DNA from: Promethearchaeota archaeon
GTDB taxonomy: Archaea; Asgardarchaeota; Lokiarchaeia; Sigyniarchaeales; SOKP01
Direction: 5' to 3'
Length of the DNA: 64,000 nt
Assembly (NCBI GenBank): GCA_048940445.1
Contig: JBHLON010000006.1
Span: forward strand, 31,634-95,633
The notes under the pieces were generated by a model that saw only the letters and a list, made by a program, of their open reading frames with translations, made no database searches and was not told the origin of the DNA. This document shows positions 13,717 to 47,032 of this stretch, in pieces. The stretch's first letter is position 1. Every line of letters starts with the position of its first letter. The translations under genes and the position numbers were made by a program.

Positions 13717-14454
13717 TTATGGCATGGTAATAATATTAGAATTTTCATCTAAATTAATGATACCTGCAACTGCAAGTTGCTTTATAGTCCTTACTGCCAT
13801 AATTGGAGGTACATCAAGCAATTTTTTTAGTTCATCAAGACTCACACTACCTTGCGTCATTATGGTTGCAAGGATATCTACTTCTGGAATTTCCTCCTCT
13901 GAATTCTCTATTAAAAACGATGTAAAGAAGTTGTTTCTTCTCAACTGAGACAATTTCTTATTCAAATCAGCCATTTTTTCTTGAGTAAAAGTTGTTTGAA
14001 GATAATTCTCTTTATTTTGATAATCTATTTTTTCTTGATCTAAAGCAGATTTTTCACCTTCCTTAGAAGTAATCTTTTGATTTAATGAATCTAATTTTAC
14101 GTTAAGTTTCTGCAGTTCTAGCTTTGGTACTTTTAGATCATAATCTAGCTTTTCTAAGGAACTATTTAATTCAGAAATTTTTAGTGTTAATTCCTCTTTT
14201 ATACTAATTAATTCATTGATCTTTTCACTTAATGATGTGCTTTTAAGATTTAATTCTGTAAGCTCAGAATTCTGTGAACGAATTACAGTCTCTAAATCTT
14301 CAATTTCTTTTTGTTCGACCTTAATTTTATTCCATGTATTACCTAGATCCTGGGTTAAGGCCTCATAGGTTTTTTGAAAAAACTGTTGATACCCCTCCAA
14401 TGAGCTCTCAAGCGATTCGATAAATCCAAATATGCTTTTTATATAGGAACTCAT
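13717..14454 (-). CDS. Coiled-coil protein with C-terminal winged helix
   Basis: About 170 aa of heptads followed by ILATIMTQGSVSLDELKKLL...IKQLAVAGII (wHTH pattern). Confidence 0.75.
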   Translation of the reverse strand: MSSYIKSIFGFIESLESSLEGYQQFFQKTYEALTQDLGNTWNKIKVEQKEIEDLETVIRSQNSELTELNLKSTSLSEKINELISIKEELTLKISELNSSLEKLDYDLKVPKLELQKLNVKLDSLNQKITSKEGEKSALDQEKIDYQNKENYLQTTFTQEKMADLNKKLSQLRRNNFFTSFLIENSEEEIPEVDILATIMTQGSVSLDELKKLLDVPPIMAVRTIKQLAVAGIINLDENSNIITMP

Positions 14455-39803: not shown

Positions 39804-41699
39804 TCATAACTTTTGATTAACCCATTGATATAATTCTCCCAATAGAACCATCTTATCTTTACTTTTTTTGAGATTGTCTATATTGTTCACATTTAATAGC
39901 CACATTGCAGATTTTAATTCATGTTTTAATGTTTTTATCTCTTTAATTGTATTGATTGTAGTATTGTTATTATAATCATTCCACGCGGAGACAAGGAATT
40001 TATAGGCAAAACCACCAATATCAGCTCCTAATATGATACTTTTTGCGATATCCAAACCTGTTTTTAAGCCCCCTGTAGCAATCAATAACTTATTTGAAGC
40101 TTCTCTGACTTTTAAAATACTTATTGGTGTGGGAATTCCCCATTCCCTAAAAGTATCCGCTATTTTTCGAGAAAATACTTCATAATCTGAGTTATCACGA
40201 AAAGCCTCAATCGCTGCAAAACTGGTACCTCCTGTTCCTCCTACATCAAATCCATTAAATCCCAAAAGATCAAGTTTTATGGCTAAATCCTTATTAAAAC
40301 CAGTTCCAACCTCCTTTGCTATCAAAGGAATTTTTGCAGCTTTTTTTACTTTTACAAAATTCTCTTGAAAATTACGATATGAGAGATCTCCATTACGCTG
40401 CACTAATTCATGTAAAGCATTAAAATGAATAGCCATCGCATCAGCGTTTACTATTTTGACGCATTCCTCAAACTGATTTTGTCCAAAATCAGGATGACTT
40501 ATTTGCCCTATACCAATATTCCCTATTATTGGTATATTAGGAGCAACTTCACGAACAACTTTAAATGAATCTATAGTAGATAGATCTTCTACAGCTATTC
40601 TTTGACTTCCCACACTCATTATAATATTTTCCGATTCAGCAGCTAAGGCTAGAATTTTATTAATTGCCTTGGAAATGGGATGTCCTCCTGTTATTGCTGC
40701 TATACAAATAGGAGCAGATATATATTTGCTAAAGAATCGAGTAGAAAGATCTACATCATTAAAATCTATTTCAGGAAGAGCATGATGTATAAGTTTTATA
40801 TCTTCAAAATAATTTTTTGAATGTTGGACATTAAATTTTAAAGGTATTTCTAAATGATCTAATTTTCTAGAATATATTTCATTTTTGAGTGGAATCTTTG
40901 ATTCTGGTTTAATATATGTACATGTTAATTTCTGATCCCGTAATGCCTTAAAAACATAATTTTCCTTCAATCCATTAATAACTTGAATGGGGATATCTAA
41001 TTCACTAATCTTTTTCATCATTGCTAGTTTTCCTTTAATTCCTCCGGTAACATCTATTTTTTCATCAAGTTTAGCTAATTGGATTTCATCTATTTCGCTT
41101 GAAGCTATTTCTAAGGCTAGTTTTGAATGATCTTTATCTTGAATATATAAGCCATCTTTTTCTATTGCAAAAATAACTTTAATAATTCTTTTTCGGTATT
41201 TTTTACATAATTCAAAAATAATTCGATCGCCTGAAAGTATTGAAAAAGATCCTCCCTTAGTGAATAGAATGTCACCATATAGTATAGGAAGAATGCCAAG
41301 ATTTAATATAGCGTCAATAGAATCCATTGATTCAAATGAGACTGTATTTGCATCTTGAATAAATATAGTCGACGGTTGAACTGAAATTGCTGGAGAATTT
41401 TTTTCAATAAACTGACGAACAATAAGAGAATTGAGTTCATTCATGGCTTTATGAGTTTTAGAAAGTCCTACTAATTGATCCTTAACTAAAGGGTTTAAAC
41501 CTTTAGAGATTTGATATTCTTTTGCTAACGGATGCCCAAATGATCCTCCTCCGTGAACGAGAATTAATTTTTGATTACTTTTAATGATTTGTTCGATTGT
41601 ATCATTAATTATATCTTTTCTTAGAGAAAAAGGATCATTTTTCTCTGTTAACAGACTACCTCCCAATTTTAATAGATAAATTCTATTAGATTCCATCAA
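39804..41699 (-). CDS. fni: Fusion of isopentenyl phosphate kinase and type 2 IPP isomerase
   Basis: N-half KLGGS, HGGGSFGH, SGD, DVTGG; C-half RKLDH, AITGG, VGSQR, KEVGTG, GGTSF, WGIPT. Confidence 0.9.
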   Translation of the reverse strand: MMESNRIYLLKLGGSLLTEKNDPFSLRKDIINDTIEQIIKSNQKLILVHGGGSFGHPLAKEYQISKGLNPLVKDQLVGLSKTHKAMNELNSLIVRQFIEKNSPAISVQPSTIFIQDANTVSFESMDSIDAILNLGILPILYGDILFTKGGSFSILSGDRIIFELCKKYRKRIIKVIFAIEKDGLYIQDKDHSKLALEIASSEIDEIQLAKLDEKIDVTGGIKGKLAMMKKISELDIPIQVINGLKENYVFKALRDQKLTCTYIKPESKIPLKNEIYSRKLDHLEIPLKFNVQHSKNYFEDIKLIHHALPEIDFNDVDLSTRFFSKYISAPICIAAITGGHPISKAINKILALAAESENIIMSVGSQRIAVEDLSTIDSFKVVREVAPNIPIIGNIGIGQISHPDFGQNQFEECVKIVNADAMAIHFNALHELVQRNGDLSYRNFQENFVKVKKAAKIPLIAKEVGTGFNKDLAIKLDLLGFNGFDVGGTGGTSFAAIEAFRDNSDYEVFSRKIADTFREWGIPTPISILKVREASNKLLIATGGLKTGLDIAKSIILGADIGGFAYKFLVSAWNDYNNNTTINTIKEIKTLKHELKSAMWLLNVNNIDNLKKSKDKMVLLGELYQWVNQKL

Positions 41700-41736
41700 A
41701 CTTAATTACCATTTAAATTTTCTTTCTAAATTGGTT

Positions 41737-42703
41737 TTAACCAATCATTGTTTTCCAAATTGAAAATCCTTCGTTTTTAATTGCGTTAAAGACTTGTTCT
41801 TGGGAAATTTCGTCGGAATTTAATGCTATCACCAATCCTCCTCGTCCTGTTCCAGTCATTTTCGCTCCTATGGCGCCATTGTTTAGAGCTATTTCCACAA
41901 TTTTATCATTTATTTCTCCTGAAACCGTCATCACTCGTAGTAATTTATGATTTTGATTCATTAATGCTCCAACAATGTCCTTTTTACCTTTAATTAACGC
42001 TTTTTTAGCGTGTTTAGCGATTTCCTTATATTCACTAAATATTGATTTAAATTTGTCTGAGTTTTCTTCTTTCAATTTACGAACATCCTCGACGACCTCT
42101 GCAGTAGAAGCCGTTATTCCAGTATCAGCAATCACTAAATGCATTTTACTTTTTGATTTTAAACGATCAATAGTGTTTTTCCCACCTTTTAAGTTCTTTA
42201 TAAACCAGATCAACCCTCCATAGGTAGATGCTGTATTATCAATACCAGAAGGCGTTCCATGGTATGCCATTTCCCCAGCATAAGCAGCAGCGTTAATTTT
42301 TTCATCATCTAAATTAAGTTTAAATTCTTCATTAAGTGCCCGTGCAAGAGATGTACATTGAGCGGCTGAAGCACCTACTCCACTTGTAGCAACCAAATCG
42401 CCACTAAATTTAATCTCTAGTCTATTATTAACTACATCAATCTTTAAAAATTCTAAAACATTTTTTATAGCTTCATTAGCTTCATTCTGCTTTTTTTCTT
42501 TATAACCAGATGTTGCCATTCGTTGGTCATCAACATACCATCCTTGACCATCTACAACTTTAACGGTAGTGATTGTCATTGACCCTAAAGCAGATGCAAT
42601 AGCGGGAAGACCATAAACCACGAAATGTTAGTGTTTACTCCCTAATTGGGAAATAAAACTCACCAAAAAGGATGATCTTTCCATAACCTTTTCCAGTACC
42701 CAT
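41737..42703 (-). CDS. mvk: Mevalonate kinase, split: exon 1 42703-42659, exon 2 42627-41737
   Basis: Joined exons give MGTGKGYGKIILFGEHFVVYG; GVGASAA, HGTPSGIDN, GAKMTGTGRGG; SD GAGGTGA before ATG 42703. Confidence 0.92.
42628..42658 (-). other. Candidate 31-nt BHB-type mRNA intron in mvk
   Basis: GGTG-AG^T-TTTATTTCC..GGGAGTAAA-CACT-AA^C; frameshifting, with in-frame TAA; removal restores FGE|HF. Confidence 0.88.
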
Positions 42704-42767
42704 AAATTTCACCTCTTTTTTTAACCTAGATAATTTATTTTAATTTTAATAAAAAGTTTTATGAAAA

Positions 42768-43160
42768 TCATTCAAGAATCTCAACTGTTCCTTCAGTACC
42801 ATTTACCATTATTTGGTCATCATTTTTAATTTTATCAATTTCGATCAGATCTACGCAAGGAATTTCACTTATGATGCACCCTACTGCAATAATAGTGTCA
42901 ATATTCTTGTTAATTATCGCTAAAGGAGCAGTCTTGTTTTTTTTCATTCGATACATGGTATAAGATCCTACCGTAGATCCTTTTCCAGTAGGAAATACTA
43001 AAATCTTCCCAGTAATTGTTTGTCCTTCTAATTCATGACCCACTTCAACCACGTTTCCAGAATCAGGATCAACTCCTCCATAAAATGAAATTCCTTCTTT
43101 GGTTACCATAGCTTTTCCTGAGACGATCCCTTGATATATTTTCCTCCCTTTTAATTTCAT
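42768..43160 (-). CDS. Phosphomevalonate dehydratase small subunit (AcnX swivel domain, DUF126)
   Basis: ISFYGGVDP..G, GKGSTVGSY; pathway context. Confidence 0.88.
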   Translation of the reverse strand: MKLKGRKIYQGIVSGKAMVTKEGISFYGGVDPDSGNVVEVGHELEGQTITGKILVFPTGKGSTVGSYTMYRMKKNKTAPLAIINKNIDTIIAVGCIISEIPCVDLIEIDKIKNDDQIMVNGTEGTVEILE

Positions 43161-44350
43161 TTTATGGCCTCCTCAACACATTGTTCAATTGTCCCAATCT
43201 TTACTTTAAATTTATTTTTTGCCCTTCCATAATAACAAGCTTTAGCTGAATCAACCATGATTCCTTTGAAACGGCCCTTAATCGGTGCAACAACGCAACA
43301 AGTATCTGCTGCAAACTTGGCACCTGCTTGTTCAATTATATTAGTATACCCGGCCTTATCAGCAACATTTTTGGTTGGTCGGGCAGTGGTTATCCAAAAT
43401 TCCTTCTTTACTTTCTTTCCTTCAAGTAATTTTGCTATTAATGCTAGTTCATGAATAGAGGCATGAGGACATCCTACACTTACGAAATCTACTTTAAGAT
43501 CTTTGTCAGTAAGATCCTGACGAGCTTTTTTTATATCCTCCTGATTTATCTGAAAAGAAATATCATTCGGTTTAGGATATTTGTTAAATTCTGGAGTAAT
43601 ATTTTCCATATGAAACAAGGCTGTCCCTCCATAAGTAGCAATTGAAGCACAAAATGACTTGAGTTCTTCAACAGTAGCAACCGGAATTCCCGTAATATAA
43701 GGGATTTTACATCCTGTTTCTACTAATTTATCCCCAATTATTTTTCCTAACAAACCAAATTCATCGCTATCTTTAACGTGCACATTAATGTTAAATAATA
43801 CTTGTCCATGACGATTTTTATCTAAATGATAACCATAATTAGGAGTTTTTCCAGTTAAAGCAGCTGCTAAAGCACTCGGTCCACCTTCGCGATTAGTTTT
43901 AGCTCCAATAACTGAGTTAGAGTAACATACAGCACTACTTTCAGCCCAAGCAATATGTTCTCCATAGTGAGGAGTATTTCCAATTAGATATGGAGTACAT
44001 GAACAAGTCGTAATAATTCCCATTTTAGCAAAAGCATCTATAGCACGATTTTGATTTTGTGCAAATTCCTCACTTATTCCCAATACTTCCCAATTTTCAC
44101 GATCCATACCAGCTGGATTCAAAGTGGTTAAAACTCTAACTTGCCCATCTTCGGCCATTTCATTGAGAAATTCTAAGCCTGCTTCACCTAAATTATCATA
44201 AGAAACTCCAGCTATCTGAACACTAGATACATCGATCATGTTTTCTGCATTAAAAATTTCTCCTAATGTTGTTAGGATCTCCATTGATTTTTGAGTAGCT
44301 TTACCGTATTTTCCATATAGCATATCTTTCTCTTCGGGTTTTAATTGCAT
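43157..44350 (-). CDS. Phosphomevalonate dehydratase large subunit (AcnX catalytic domain, DUF521)
   Basis: TTLNP, CSCTPY, WAESSA, GCPHAS, DTCCVV; ATG 44350 preferred. Confidence 0.88.
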   Translation of the reverse strand: MQLKPEEKDMLYGKYGKATQKSMEILTTLGEIFNAENMIDVSSVQIAGVSYDNLGEAGLEFLNEMAEDGQVRVLTTLNPAGMDRENWEVLGISEEFAQNQNRAIDAFAKMGIITTCSCTPYLIGNTPHYGEHIAWAESSAVCYSNSVIGAKTNREGGPSALAAALTGKTPNYGYHLDKNRHGQVLFNINVHVKDSDEFGLLGKIIGDKLVETGCKIPYITGIPVATVEELKSFCASIATYGGTALFHMENITPEFNKYPKPNDISFQINQEDIKKARQDLTDKDLKVDFVSVGCPHASIHELALIAKLLEGKKVKKEFWITTARPTKNVADKAGYTNIIEQAGAKFAADTCCVVAPIKGRFKGIMVDSAKACYYGRAKNKFKVKIGTIEQCVEEAIK

Positions 44351-44360
44351 ATTTATCACT

Positions 44361-45674
44361 TTAAACAAAATATTTTTCTAAATCTACATTCGGGAATTTT
44401 GCTTTATTGAAATCTTTTCCTTTTGTTTGCATAGGTTTAGTAAAATCAAATCCTATCTTTGTCGTTAATTTTGTTCCAAGTTCAGCACTTGGATCTAAAC
44501 TACTTCCTGGTTCTTTATCTTTTATTATCATTCTTTTATCTCCTTGAAACCTAGTTGCCATAGCCCATTCTATAGATAATGGGTCATAGATATCAATATC
44601 TTTATCAACTATAAAAACATGCTTACAGCTACTATGCCCTGTAAATGCACCTTGAATTGCTTTTTTGCCATCATCTTCAGAATTTTTATCAATTTTAACA
44701 ATGGCATGCAACCATGAACATCCTCCTGGATTAATATTTACATCCAAACATTTTACACCCATTTCATTTACTTTATTAAAGATGGTGGGCTCACGAGGCA
44801 TACCCATTAAAATCTTATGTTCTAGGGCACCAGGTAGTAAAGCTTGCCAAATTGCATTTTTTCTATGAGTAATTTTCTTAACTTCAAATACAGGTTCTTC
44901 TCTGATAATATCATAAGTTTCCGTTAAATCAACAAATGGCCCTTCAGCGTGTTTCTCCTCTAAATAAACTCTTCCTTCTAAAACAAATTCAGTTTCTGCT
45001 GGAATAAGCAAATCAACAGACTTCGCTTTAACGACTTTAATTGATTCCAATGCATTTGCGATAGTTAATTCATCAATTCCCATATCAACCGAAGTAGCTC
45101 CAGCAATAAGGATATTTGGAGTATTTCCTATACAATACGCAACATCCAACTCTCCATTCTTTATTAAAAATTTATCAAAATGACGCCCTTTTACTACTCT
45201 TGTAGAAAATTTATCTTTAGAAAATTGCATAGCTCTATGAAAGTCTAGGTTTTGACCATATTCAGGGTCTCTAGTTACCACTACGGCAGAACTTATATAA
45301 TTTCCTCCATCTTTTTCACAATGAAATAAAATTGGGATTTGATCTAAATCTACATTCGGTTCTACCACTTCTTGGCAACGAGCTGTTGAAACTAATTGGG
45401 GTTCTGAGCGATTTAATATAGCTTTTGAAAGTTTTGGTATAAGATCAACTGGAGTAATTCCGAAGTAAGAAGCAACTGCACTTTTAGTACAAAACATATT
45501 ACCAACTACACGAAAATCAGATTCTTTAACATTATTAAAAAGTACAGGAGTGGGTTCCAATTCTTTTAGGATACCAGAAATTTCCAATTTCCGTGAAACT
45601 TCACCTTCTACCTTTTTAAGTACACCGTTATCATCAATCTTGTTTAAATATTCTCTAAATCCCACATTTACCAC
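44361..45674 (-). CDS. ubiD: UbiD-family decarboxylase (anhydromevalonate phosphate decarboxylase by context)
   Basis: DGGNY, FHR, EGPFVD, VD.DID, EWAMATR, SSLDPS. Confidence 0.88.
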   Translation of the reverse strand: MVNVGFREYLNKIDDNGVLKKVEGEVSRKLEISGILKELEPTPVLFNNVKESDFRVVGNMFCTKSAVASYFGITPVDLIPKLSKAILNRSEPQLVSTARCQEVVEPNVDLDQIPILFHCEKDGGNYISSAVVVTRDPEYGQNLDFHRAMQFSKDKFSTRVVKGRHFDKFLIKNGELDVAYCIGNTPNILIAGATSVDMGIDELTIANALESIKVVKAKSVDLLIPAETEFVLEGRVYLEEKHAEGPFVDLTETYDIIREEPVFEVKKITHRKNAIWQALLPGALEHKILMGMPREPTIFNKVNEMGVKCLDVNINPGGCSWLHAIVKIDKNSEDDGKKAIQGAFTGHSSCKHVFIVDKDIDIYDPLSIEWAMATRFQGDKRMIIKDKEPGSSLDPSAELGTKLTTKIGFDFTKPMQTKGKDFNKAKFPNVDLEKYFV

Positions 45675-45751
45675 TTTTAATTCTTCATGACAAAATTACT
45701 ATTATTAAAAATAAGGTTATAATTAAAGGAGTTTATGAATCACTTAAAAAG

Positions 45752-47032
45752 CTAAAGGTTTTTTTTGTTAATTATTTCATTTAATAACTTTTTAGCATAA
45801 TCGACTCGTATTTTATTATCTTCAACTAATTTATCTGCAACCTTTTCAATAAGATGATCTGGTACTCCTGCTAATTTAGCAATATTACGAGAGTGAAGCG
45901 TCATGTGACCTTTTTGAATACCTTCTGCTGCTAGAGCTCGTAAAGCCGCAACATTTTGGGCTAATCCTACTGCGGCAGCTACTTGACATAACTCCTGAGA
46001 GGTTTTTACTCCTAACATTTTTAGGTTTAATCGTGCCATAGGATGAATCTTTGTCATTCCACCAATAATCCCTAAAGCCAAGGGAATTTCAATCTCTCCG
46101 ATTAGATGTCCATCTTTGTCTATTGTAAAACTAGTCAAAGGAGTATATTTCCCATTTAATGAAGCATAAGCATGAGCTCCAGATTCAATAGCTCTTGTAT
46201 CATTTCCAGTTGCTAAAGTGAGAGCAACTATTCCATTCATAATTCCTTTATTATGAGTTGTAGCACGATAAGGATCAGCAACCGCAAATTCGTATGCGTT
46301 TAATATCCCCTCAACAACCTTCTCTCCTCCTAGTAATTCTCTATCGAACTTAGCTTTACATTTTGCAATTCGATGAATTGCTAAATTTGAAACAATTCGT
46401 AAATAAATCAATCCTCCCGTTAATTCCTCGATATAAGGTGTAAGGGCTTCAGCCATAGTATTAACCACATTTGCACCCATTGCATCCAAGACATTAACTA
46501 GTAAATGTAAAATTAACATCTTTCCCTTCCTTGTACTAAGCTCTCTGAGTTCAAAATCATAGGCTCCTCCTCCAAGTTTATGTAAAAGAGGATCTTGATC
46601 ATTAGCAATCTTCAGTAAATCTTGTTTATGCTCTAATAGCAAGTTTTTAGCTAACTTGATATCTTTTAGATTAGTAATTTGGATCTGAGAGATCATTATT
46701 GAATTTACTTTTTCGGCGAAAAAACCTCCATGTTTTCTAGCAATTTTAGCAGCGTTTGAAGCAGCTGCCACTACTGATGGTTCTTCTATTACCATAGGGA
46801 TGAGGTAATCTTTATTATTTATTTTGAAGTTACATGCTATACCAATTGGTAATTGATAAGATCCAACCACATTTTCAATCAAAGTATCTATCTGAGTATC
46901 TGTGAAATATCCTAAATTTTTAAGTAATCTTAAATCTTCATCATCTAAATCAATAAGTTCAGTAAGTATTTTCTGACGCTCCTTTAATGATAATTTATAA
47001 AATCCCGAAAGATCAGAATGGAATGTACTCAT
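45752..47032 (-). CDS. mvaA: HMG-CoA reductase, class II
   Basis: IENVVG, EEPSVVAAAS, DAMGAN, THNKGIMNG, GIQKGHM. Confidence 0.95.
   Translation of the reverse strand: MSTFHSDLSGFYKLSLKERQKILTELIDLDDEDLRLLKNLGYFTDTQIDTLIENVVGSYQLPIGIACNFKINNKDYLIPMVIEEPSVVAAASNAAKIARKHGGFFAEKVNSIMISQIQITNLKDIKLAKNLLLEHKQDLLKIANDQDPLLHKLGGGAYDFELRELSTRKGKMLILHLLVNVLDAMGANVVNTMAEALTPYIEELTGGLIYLRIVSNLAIHRIAKCKAKFDRELLGGEKVVEGILNAYEFAVADPYRATTHNKGIMNGIVALTLATGNDTRAIESGAHAYASLNGKYTPLTSFTIDKDGHLIGEIEIPLALGIIGGMTKIHPMARLNLKMLGVKTSQELCQVAAAVGLAQNVAALRALAAEGIQKGHMTLHSRNIAKLAGVPDHLIEKVADKLVEDNKIRVDYAKKLLNEIINKKNL

What the first reader, a model, noticed from the sequence alone, without database searches (positions are those of the whole stretch)
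42628..42658. tRNA-type (bulge-helix-bulge) intron inside the mevalonate kinase mRNA
Seen: on the minus strand, SD+ATG (42703) reads MGTGKGYGKIILFGE, then a 31-nt insert TTTTATTTCCCAATTAGGGAGTAAACACTAA (in-frame TAA, shifts frame), then HFVVYG. The junctions fold as a 4-bp helix GGUG/CACU with 3-nt bulges AGU and AAC and a 9-bp intron stem. Established: the archaeal splicing endonuclease EndA cuts BHB motifs after the second nucleotide of each bulge and RtcB ligates; mRNA introns of this type are known mainly from crenarchaeal cbf5. Applying that rule (AG^U, AA^C) gives GGU GAG CAU UUC = GEHF, exactly restoring the conserved GKxxLFGEH motif. The exon-exon outer helix is weak, so this is a relaxed BHB. 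Inference: a core membrane-lipid enzyme in an Asgard archaeon needs mRNA splicing, loosely recalling RtcB-ligated XBP1 splicing.
Basis: partly seen in the sequence, partly recalled or inferred. Interest (0 to 1): 0.96.

Follow-up and report, generated by a model that had tools for sequence, protein, structure and literature searches.

The report
tRNA-type mini-intron in Asgard mevalonate kinase
The only mevalonate kinase gene found in this Loki-type (Asgard) archaeon is broken by a 31-base insert that dozens of related species keep in the shape cut by the tRNA-splicing enzyme, so the message very probably has to be cut and rejoined, which the papers I could search describe inside only one other archaeal protein-coding sequence.

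Summary
Confirmed. A 31-nt insert (42658-42628, minus strand) splits Glu15 from His16 of the only mvk found, with stops in both frames. Three independent assemblies carry it. The same site holds a 28-31-nt insert in 55 of 135 family genomes (5 genera, Promethearchaeota); 31 others are intronless, and none has both. The exon-intron helix covaries (C-G 50, U-A 4, U-G 1). Only the bulge-helix-bulge cut register gives GEHF in all 55. A distal exon-exon helix is under synonymous constraint in 53/55 intron-bearing against 2/30 intronless copies. The genome encodes an (αβ)2 EndA with the broad-specificity loop, and RtcB. Bypass and a single frameshift are excluded here. The motif is relaxed and lies 3 kcal/mol above the best fold. 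The intron also moves as DNA: near-identical genes differ only in a block around it, and an HNH-like gene lies upstream in 2 of 62 loci. Six more such inserts were checked in this genome. This scan noted the same intron before in other genomes. Verdict: EndA/RtcB-spliced mRNA intron, about 90%.

The parts
42709..42715 (-). Shine-Dalgarno-like site (GAGGTGA) of mvk
   Evidence: sequence; similar GGTGA sites precede exon 1 in most relatives
42659..42703 (-). mvk exon 1, 15 codons, containing Lys9 (42679-42677) and Glu15
   Evidence: aligns with Leishmania MK Lys18/Glu24, which are catalytic/structural residues (PMC1851959); second-position divergence as low as in intronless genes
42628..42658 (-). 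31-nt BHB-type intron; stops in both exon frames (42637-42635 and 42630-42628)
   Evidence: same site in 55 genomes
42661..42664 (-). central helix H, exon strand (Gly14 codon plus first base of Glu15)
   Evidence: Gly14 codon is GGC/GGT only in 55/55 intron-bearing genes; mostly GGA/GGT/GGG in intronless ones
42630..42633 (-). central helix H, intron strand
   Evidence: covaries with the Gly14 third base: C-G 50, U-A 4, U-G 1; pair counts
42658..42660 (-). 5' bulge (A-G^U), predicted cut between 42659 and 42658
   Evidence: BHB rule (PMC2738675); first base is A in all aligned copies
42627..42629 (-). 3' bulge (A-A^C), predicted cut between 42628 and 42627
   Evidence: first base is A in 55/55; only this register gives GEHF in all 55
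42634..42657 (-). intron hairpin (h'), 9 bp plus loop
   Evidence: 7 of 9 pairs show changes on both sides among 49 distinct sequences
42672..42682 (-). 5' arm of the distal exon-exon clamp helix (codons G8-I11)
   Evidence: pairing probability about 0.96 across copies; synonymous constraint only in intron-bearing genes
42605..42614 (-). 3' arm of the distal exon-exon clamp helix (codons Y20-P23)
41737..42627 (-). mvk exon 2 (296 codons plus stop); GHMP kinase, closest solved structure Leishmania major MK 2hfs
   Evidence: (E 2.5e-65); only ortholog found in the genome
42704..42767 (-). short AT-rich spacer between the AcnX small-subunit gene and mvk; intronless relatives have none; possibly the remnant of a lost inserted gene (inference)
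39804..47032 (-). surrounding mevalonate operon: HMG-CoA reductase, UbiD, AcnX large and small subunits, mvk, IPK-IDI2; all open
   Evidence: Pfam hits on orthologous loci

Best explanation
The insert is a relaxed bulge-helix-bulge (HBh') intron in the mvk pre-mRNA. SHOWN in sequence and comparison: the gene is otherwise intact and under selection, and the 31 nt must be removed exactly to give the active-site motif. The RNA elements (4-bp central helix, two A-led 3-nt bulges, intron hairpin, distal exon-exon helix) are conserved. The genome encodes an (αβ)2 tRNA-splicing endonuclease with the loop that allows relaxed motifs, and RtcB. INFERRED: after transcription the distal helix clamps the exons, EndA cuts after the second base of each bulge (42659|42658 and 42628|42627), and RtcB joins the exons into a 311-codon message; the intron may be circularised. 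Unspliced messages give a 22-residue peptide. The intron is probably a tolerated passenger in a conserved motif. It spreads between strains and genera by homologous recombination of a DNA block around it, plausibly driven at times by a neighbouring free-standing HNH-like nuclease (about 45% for that last step).
For: 55/135 family genomes carry the insert and 31 are intronless, with no overlap. Lengths 31 x50, 30 x4, 28 x1; all have a stop in the exon-1 frame. Pairing 86% against 38-45% for slid controls; 8 pairs change on both sides. Gly14 third base covaries with its intron partner; Phe13 is TTT in 55/55 against 10/30. The distal helix beats synonymous resampling in 53/55 against 2/30, and unpaired synonymous sites nearer the junction (V18, V19) stay variable. 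Register test: GEHF 55/55 only at the BHB cut. Exon 2 is 296 codons and open in all 52 complete copies. EndA α has the Tyr/His/Lys triad and the KPR loop aligned to Aeropyrum EndA; the second paralogue lacks the His; Asgard EndA is (αβ)2 with the L1 loop (PMC5829648). RtcB E 2.7e-168. Six further BHB-shaped inserts in other genes of this genome. Mobility: L214 (intronless) and L039 (intron) differ at 9/738 nt in distal exon 2 but 14/45 in exon 1 and 21/150 just downstream; L039 matches L038 at 0/45 and 3/150 there but 61/738 distally. L215 (intron plus upstream HNH-like gene) and L086 (neither) differ at 24/738.
Against: The motif is weak: the outer pair of H is G·A in 33/55, the immediate outer helix is 1 bp, and the BHB fold lies a median 1.9 kcal/mol (3.0 here) above the best fold. 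RNAalifold did not predict it. The structure was drawn from these sequences and kin are not independent; only 4 well-supported independent pairs exist (sign test p 0.125). Part of the flank conservation may reflect recent co-transfer rather than selection. The HNH-like gene is seen in only 2 of 62 intron-bearing loci, is absent here, and its family call is weak (Pfam E 0.065; atlas scores under 0.9).
Confidence: 0.9

Rival explanations
1. The insert is removed from the RNA, but by something other than EndA/RtcB (another endonuclease reading the hairpin, IRE1-like), or it is excised at DNA level in part of the population.
For: Activity of this EndA was not tested; the motif is relaxed and marginal in energy; sequence is conserved inside the intron as well.
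Against: The required cut sites coincide exactly with the second position of two 3-nt bulges around a covarying 4-bp helix, the EndA signature. No genome holds both forms, and three assemblies of the same organism all retain the insert. No Rfam family matches.
Confidence: 0.05
2. The ribosome recodes across the insert (programmed frameshift, or T4 gene-60-like hop), with no splicing.
For: A hairpin and a stop codon follow the take-off codon; a single frameshift is geometrically possible in 33 of 55 copies.
Against: No matched take-off/landing codon in any of 55 copies. A single frameshift is impossible in 22 of 55, including this genome, because both frames are stopped. Lengths of 28, 30 and 31 nt need different shifts. 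A frameshift product would carry about 10 extra residues inside the strained Glu-His motif (PMC1851959).
Confidence: 0.03
3. The insert inactivates the gene, or a truncated protein starts at GTG 42621 and the function is supplied elsewhere.
For: Public annotations- or 315-residue products without the true N-terminus; the genome is 93% complete, so a spare copy cannot be fully excluded.
Against: 52 complete exon-2 copies are open, with second-position divergence equal to intronless genes, and exon 1 is equally conserved. The downstream GTG is present in only 9/55. Loss of Lys9/Glu15/His16 removes catalytic and substrate-binding residues. None of the 55 genomes has an intronless copy by the same pattern.
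Confidence: 0.015
4. Assembly or sequencing artefact.
For: None found; raw reads could not be inspected.
Against: Identical in three independent assemblies and homologous in 55 genomes from many studies.
Confidence: 0.005

Closest known systems
cbf5 pre-mRNA BHB intron of Desulfurococcales and Sulfolobales (Watanabe 2002; Yokobori 2009, PMC2738675)
   Same: Short intron inside a coding sequence at a catalytic motif; unconventional BHB; cut between the second and third bulge bases by a hetero-oligomeric EndA; patchy presence among relatives.
   Different: Other phylum (Promethearchaeota) and a metabolic gene. It is one of several such inserts in one genome, not a lone case. It has a distal exon-exon clamp in place of an immediate outer helix, and shows DNA-level transfer between genera. 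cbf5 splicing is proven by cDNA; this is not.
Non-canonical (HBh') tRNA introns of Asgard and TACK archaea (PMC5829648; bioRxiv 10.64898/2026.10.13.758758)
   Same: Same motif class and same presumed enzymes; the preprint reports repeated gains at BHB-compatible sites in Asgard tRNA genes.
   Different: Host is an mRNA. The preprint does not mention mRNA (0 occurrences) and found no general route of arrival. A covariance model of this intron finds no second copy in the genome.
BHB intron in the 5' UTR of Haloferax HVO_1309 (PMC7714728)
   Same: EndA-processed mRNA.
   Different: Untranslated region, so removal is not needed to restore a reading frame.
Collaborative homing of phage introns with free-standing homing endonucleases (described in PMC10448857)
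   Same: Endonuclease-free intron, a nuclease-like gene next to the 5' exon, and co-conversion of flanks.
   Different: Known cases are self-splicing group I introns of phages. Here the intron is protein-spliced and chromosomal, the nuclease-like gene is present in only 2 of 62 loci, and its target is untested.
XBP1/HAC1 splicing by IRE1 and a tRNA ligase (PMC13149111)
   Same: Short, spliceosome-independent mRNA intron whose removal changes the reading frame; exon joining by a tRNA ligase (RtcB for XBP1, PMC8718801 abstract).
   Different: IRE1 cuts two hairpin loops under stress control (own knowledge); here both cuts fall in bulges across one helix, and no regulation is shown.

Membership tests
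Archaeal BHB (EndA/RtcB) intron | 4-bp central helix formed by exon and intron | tested here: met
   4 bp here (3 Watson-Crick plus G·U). The inner three pairs hold in all 49 distinct sequences, with C-G/U-A covariation; the outer pair is G·A in 33/55 relatives
Archaeal BHB (EndA/RtcB) intron | Two 3-nt bulges on opposite strands; cutting after the second base gives the mature sequence | tested here: met
   Only this register yields GEHF in 55/55, matching 30/30 intronless genes; -1/-2 give GDHF in 38, +1/+2 destroy the His
Archaeal BHB (EndA/RtcB) intron | Intron-side helix h' | tested here: met
   9 pairs, 85% of cells paired, 7 pairs with two-sided changes
Strict hBHBh' motif | Exon-exon helix h directly next to the 3' bulge | tested here: not met
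   Only one invariant U-A pair; a distal 8-10-bp helix exists instead. The element is the relaxed HBh' type, not the strict type
Archaeal BHB (EndA/RtcB) intron | Host has an EndA able to cut relaxed motifs ((αβ)2 with L1/CSL loop) and a ligase | tested here: met
   Two paralogues; α has the triad and loop lysine aligned with Aeropyrum 3p1z_B; RtcB present. By sequence only
Archaeal BHB (EndA/RtcB) intron | BHB is the favoured fold of the precursor | tested here: inconclusive
   +3.0 kcal/mol over the best fold here, median +1.9 in the family; RNAalifold misses it
Archaeal BHB (EndA/RtcB) intron | Spliced RNA, excised (circular) intron, cleavage by EndA | not testable with these tools
Group I / group II self-splicing intron | Ribozyme core of at least about 200 nt (own knowledge) | tested here: not met
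   28-31 nt; no Rfam match to E 1
Translational bypass (T4 gene 60 type) | Matched take-off and landing codons | tested here: not met
   0 of 55
Programmed single frameshift | Overlap of the two open frames | tested here: not met
   Absent in this genome and 21 others
Collaborative homing (free-standing nuclease plus intron) | Nuclease gene adjacent to the intron-bearing gene | tested here: inconclusive
   HNH-like gene 119-173 nt upstream in 2 of 62 intron-bearing loci (L036, L215), 0 of 31 intronless, absent here; some loci had little upstream DNA
Collaborative homing (free-standing nuclease plus intron) | Co-conversion of flanking DNA with the intron | tested here: met
   Mosaic pairs L214/L039/L038 and L215/L086; exon 1 plus intron nearly identical across distant gene bodies. 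Direction of transfer not fixed
Collaborative homing (free-standing nuclease plus intron) | Nuclease cuts the intronless allele and spares the intron-bearing one | not testable with these tools
   Needs a cleavage assay
Mevalonate kinase (GHMP) | GHMP N and C domains; motif 1 Lys and Glu-His | tested here: met
   PF00288 and PF08544; best structure 2hfs; motif complete only after removal of the insert

The most novel reading that the evidence does not exclude
This family of Lokiarchaeia runs routine EndA/RtcB splicing of many protein-coding mRNAs. Its micro-introns behave as selfish elements that sit in conserved catalytic motifs and spread between species by collaborative homing with free-standing HNH-like nucleases: a prokaryotic, protein-spliced, mobile mRNA-intron system in the lineage closest to eukaryotes.
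Probability: 0.4. Interest if true: 0.93.

Novelty: new variant of a known kind. Interest (0 to 1): 0.82.

Why it matters
Enzyme-spliced introns inside archaeal coding sequences are in print for one gene, cbf5 (PMC7714728, 2020). Five searches for Asgard mRNA introns found no paper describing one; subscription journals were not covered. A conserved intron in a core isoprenoid-pathway enzyme, with at least six more candidates in the same genome, would make mRNA splicing a routine step in an Asgard lineage. That bears on how intron-tolerant the ancestors of eukaryotes were and on the origin of tRNA-ligase-dependent mRNA splicing, though it says nothing direct about spliceosomal introns. The presence/absence pairs and transfer tracts make intron gain and loss testable, a question left open for Asgard tRNA introns. 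In practice, public annotations give these proteins false N-termini (315 or 294 residues), and such genes may be dismissed as pseudogenes.

Tried and rejected
Two metagenome scans for the spliced junction gave 0 hits and 1 hit; the hit is a 40%-divergent intronless gene of another organism. In the protein search, the one full-length protein 98% identical to an intron-bearing exon 2 (P0056) is a genomic intronless allele with a different exon 1, not a cDNA. RNAalifold gave no BHB consensus. The search for related loci in genome contigs found nothing. Non-Loki hits of the genome-wide pattern are chance or an intronless gene. The first de novo intron scan timed out, the second missed the positive control, and the third recovered it but with only modest excess over decoy bulge sizes (15 against 4-11 sites), so I give no genome-wide count. 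A covariance model found no second copy of this intron (next best E 0.8), which argues against copying from a tRNA intron of the same genome, although only about 20 tRNA genes were detected. My first guess, that the 1.1-kb upstream insert is a nuclease, was wrong for most loci: it is a mevalonate-diphosphate-decarboxylase-like gene. Most other members of the HNH-like family sit at unrelated sites where my screen found no convincing intron. The careful tree did not finish; the quick tree needs 16 state changes (at least 4 forced) and cannot tell gain from loss. I could not delineate a BHB for the metG lead.

Full report
OBSERVATION. On the minus strand an SD-like site (42715-42709) and ATG 42703 open 15 codons ending Gly14-Glu15. 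Then come 31 nt (42658-42628), and His16 at 42627 opens 296 uninterrupted codons. The exon-1 frame stops at 42637-42635 and the exon-2 frame has TAA at 42630-42628. The gene lies in an intact mevalonate operon (HMG-CoA reductase, UbiD, AcnX large and small, mvk, IPK-IDI2). It is the only ortholog found in a 93%-complete genome; the other hit is a 28%-identical GHMP kinase. The same 221-nt region occurs unchanged in three independent assemblies, so it is not an artefact. Record titles of relatives name Promethearchaeota (Lokiarchaeia).

THE PROTEIN NEEDS BOTH PARTS. Exon 2 matches GHMP kinase N and C domains, with Leishmania major mevalonate kinase as the closest structure (E 2.5e-65). An intronless ortholog aligns to it through the N-terminus, placing Lys9, Glu15 and His16 on Lys18, Glu24 and His25. 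That paper calls Lys18 catalytic, His25 key for substrate binding, and the Glu-His backbone strained (PMC1851959). A start at GTG 42621 would lose all three, and that codon is GTG in only 9 of 55 relatives.

CONSERVATION. A pattern search of 135 family genomes found the insert at the same site in 55, in five genera; the reversed control found none. A second search found 31 genomes with the intronless junction, none overlapping the first set. Lengths are 31 (50), 30 (4) and 28 (1), and every insert has a stop in the exon-1 frame. Exon 2 is open and 296 codons long in all 52 complete copies; the three shorter ones are due to Ns or a contig end. Second-position divergence equals that of intronless genes in both exons. 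Across 185,579 species genomes, real hits of the pattern were confined to this group.

RNA ANATOMY. On a gap-free alignment of 50 copies the proposed structure pairs 86% of cells, against 38-45% for slid controls, and 8 pairs change on both sides; the structure came from these sequences, so this leans in its favour. The telling pair joins exon and intron: the third base of Gly14 and its partner are C-G 50, U-A 4 (this genome among them) and U-G 1. Gly14 is only GGC/GGT with the intron but GGA 13, GGT 9, GGG 6, GGC 2 without it, and Phe13 is TTT in 55/55 against 10/30. Both bulges begin with an invariant A. Sliding both cuts by one or two bases gives GDHF in 38 copies or destroys the His; only the BHB register gives GEHF in all 55, as in 30/30 intronless genes. 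The motif is relaxed: the outer pair of the central helix is G·A in 33 of 55, and the immediate exon-exon helix is one pair. Instead an 8-10-bp helix between codons 8-11 and 20-23 is predicted at about 0.96 probability. It beats synonymous resampling in 53/55 intron-bearing and 2/30 intronless genes. Paired third positions have low entropy (0-0.75 bits), while unpaired V18 and V19, closer to the junction, stay at 1.65 and 1.28; this favours selection on pairing over pure hitch-hiking. Only four well-supported independent pairs exist; nearly all go the expected way but cannot reach significance. Against: the BHB fold lies 3.0 kcal/mol above the best fold here (median 1.9), and RNAalifold does not recover it. 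Protein binding would have to select it (inference).

MACHINERY. The genome has two tRNA-endonuclease paralogues and RtcB. One is closest to Aeropyrum EndA α (E 3e-38), with the Tyr, His and Lys of the triad and the loop lysine aligned; the other lacks the His, as expected of β. PMC5829648 reports that Asgard EndA is (αβ)2 with the L1 loop and that only such types cut non-canonical introns.

RECODING EXCLUDED. No copy has matched take-off and landing codons, and a single frameshift is impossible in 22 of 55 copies, this one included.

MOBILITY. On a quick exon-2 tree the intron state changes 16 times, at least 4 forced by strong branches. Intron distance tracks protein distance only loosely (Mantel rho 0.34). 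Exon 1 plus intron can be nearly identical between distant gene bodies, for example L011 and L077 (0.04 against 0.23). Intronless L214 and intron-bearing L039 differ at 9/738 nt in distal exon 2 but at 14/45 in exon 1, 21/150 just downstream and 82/450 upstream. Over those same stretches L039 matches intron-bearing L038 (0/45, 3/150, 16/450) while differing at 61/738 distally. A block of DNA around the junction was therefore exchanged; the direction is not fixed. In 29 of 30 intronless loci mvk abuts the upstream gene, whereas many intron-bearing loci have something inserted there: a decarboxylase-like gene, a 65-320-nt spacer (about 65 nt here), or an HNH-like gene. The HNH-like gene occurs in two loci, the two proteins 33% identical. 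One of them, L215, differs from intronless, nuclease-free L086 at only 24/738 nt. The family occupies many unrelated sites in 49 of 135 genomes. Its nuclease identity rests on paired His/Cys motifs, a weak Pfam hit and sub-threshold atlas neighbours. This fits collaborative homing as described for phage introns (PMC10448857) but does not prove it; the idea came from earlier scan notes.

NOT ALONE. Using leads from earlier notes and my own scan, I checked BHB-shaped inserts whose removal rejoins a reading frame in fwdA (30 nt, strict motif), uvrA (31), dnaG (37), a rubredoxin (31), rpl11 (38) and an unnamed gene on C134 (30) of this genome. These were checked in sequence only, not across relatives. 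The mvk intron has no sequence twin in the genome.

WHAT IS MISSING. Splicing is inferred, not seen.

COMPARISON WITH KNOWN SYSTEMS. It works like the cbf5 intron of Crenarchaeota (PMC2738675), stated in 2020 to be the only known BHB intron in an archaeal mRNA besides a Haloferax 5' UTR (PMC7714728). It meets every sequence-level feature of the relaxed BHB class and fails the strict one. A 2026 preprint on Asgard tRNA introns does not mention mRNA and leaves the route of intron arrival open. My searches found no paper on Asgard mRNA introns. This scan's own notes report the same mvk intron in other genomes; those are unchecked AI notes and are not counted as evidence.

VERDICT. EndA/RtcB-spliced mRNA intron, 0.90. 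New variant of a known kind: new phylum and gene class, several per genome, distal clamp, DNA-level mobility. Interest 0.82.

Noticed in passing
G000 C47:64002(+), C63:31236(-), C67:4642(+), C21:44709(-), C61:46028(+), C134:109550(+): BHB-shaped 30-38-nt inserts in fwdA, uvrA (zinc-finger motif), dnaG, a rubredoxin, rpl11 and an unnamed gene; removal by the BHB rule rejoins the frame. uvrA and the C134 gene came from my own scan.
   Followed up: partly
G000 C10 near 14354-14420(+): metG is split across frames at its HIGH-region motif by a short insert; my script did not delineate a BHB there.
   Followed up: partly
L007-L010, L032, L074 (ACG); L011 (CTG); L210 (ATA); 22 loci (TTG): Intron-bearing mvk genes often start at non-ATG codons (29/55 against 2/30 intronless, after correcting two N-terminal extensions). 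Weak initiation could keep ribosomes off the unspliced RNA; confounded by kinship.
   Followed up: partly
L042:303-1322, L054:293-1303 and about ten more loci: A mevalonate-diphosphate-decarboxylase-like gene is inserted between the AcnX small subunit and mvk only in intron-bearing loci, once in another genus (L011), as if it hitch-hikes with the intron block; fragments of it remain in L110, L152 and L181.
   Followed up: partly
L115-L144: A family of proteins with two HNH-like His/Cys motifs, stand-alone or fused to long N-termini, in 49/135 genomes at many sites, about nine times directly upstream of an Sm/Lsm-like gene.
   Followed up: partly
window 41737-42703 (-): This mevalonate kinase type is far closer to the Leishmania enzyme (E 2.5e-65) than to solved archaeal or bacterial ones (E about 1e-24 or weaker); other Lokiarchaeia carry a different, roughly 32%-identical type.
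   Followed up: partly
P0003, P0006, P0089 and about 30 others: Public databases annotate intron-bearing mvk with a false out-of-frame N-terminus (315 aa) or truncated (294 aa).
   Followed up: yes
window 39804-41699 (-): Isopentenyl phosphate kinase and type 2 IPP isomerase are fused here (631 aa) but separate in L218/L219.
   Followed up: no
window 42680-42695 with 42665-42670 (-): Third bases of Gly4 and Lys5 are also conserved in intron-bearing copies (A 54/55, 50/55); this may be a second helix with Leu12-Phe13 or a co-transfer trace.
   Followed up: no
G000 whole genome: ARAGORN finds only about 20 tRNA genes, several with introns at odd positions (e.g. C67:18063-18170), suggesting many multiply interrupted tRNAs are missed.
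   Followed up: no
L147, L166, L167, L171, L181, L201: Record titles name other phyla (Nanopelagicaceae, Hermod-, Hod-, Odinarchaeota) for contigs that carry this Lokiarchaeia locus; probably mislabelled or misbinned records.
   Followed up: no
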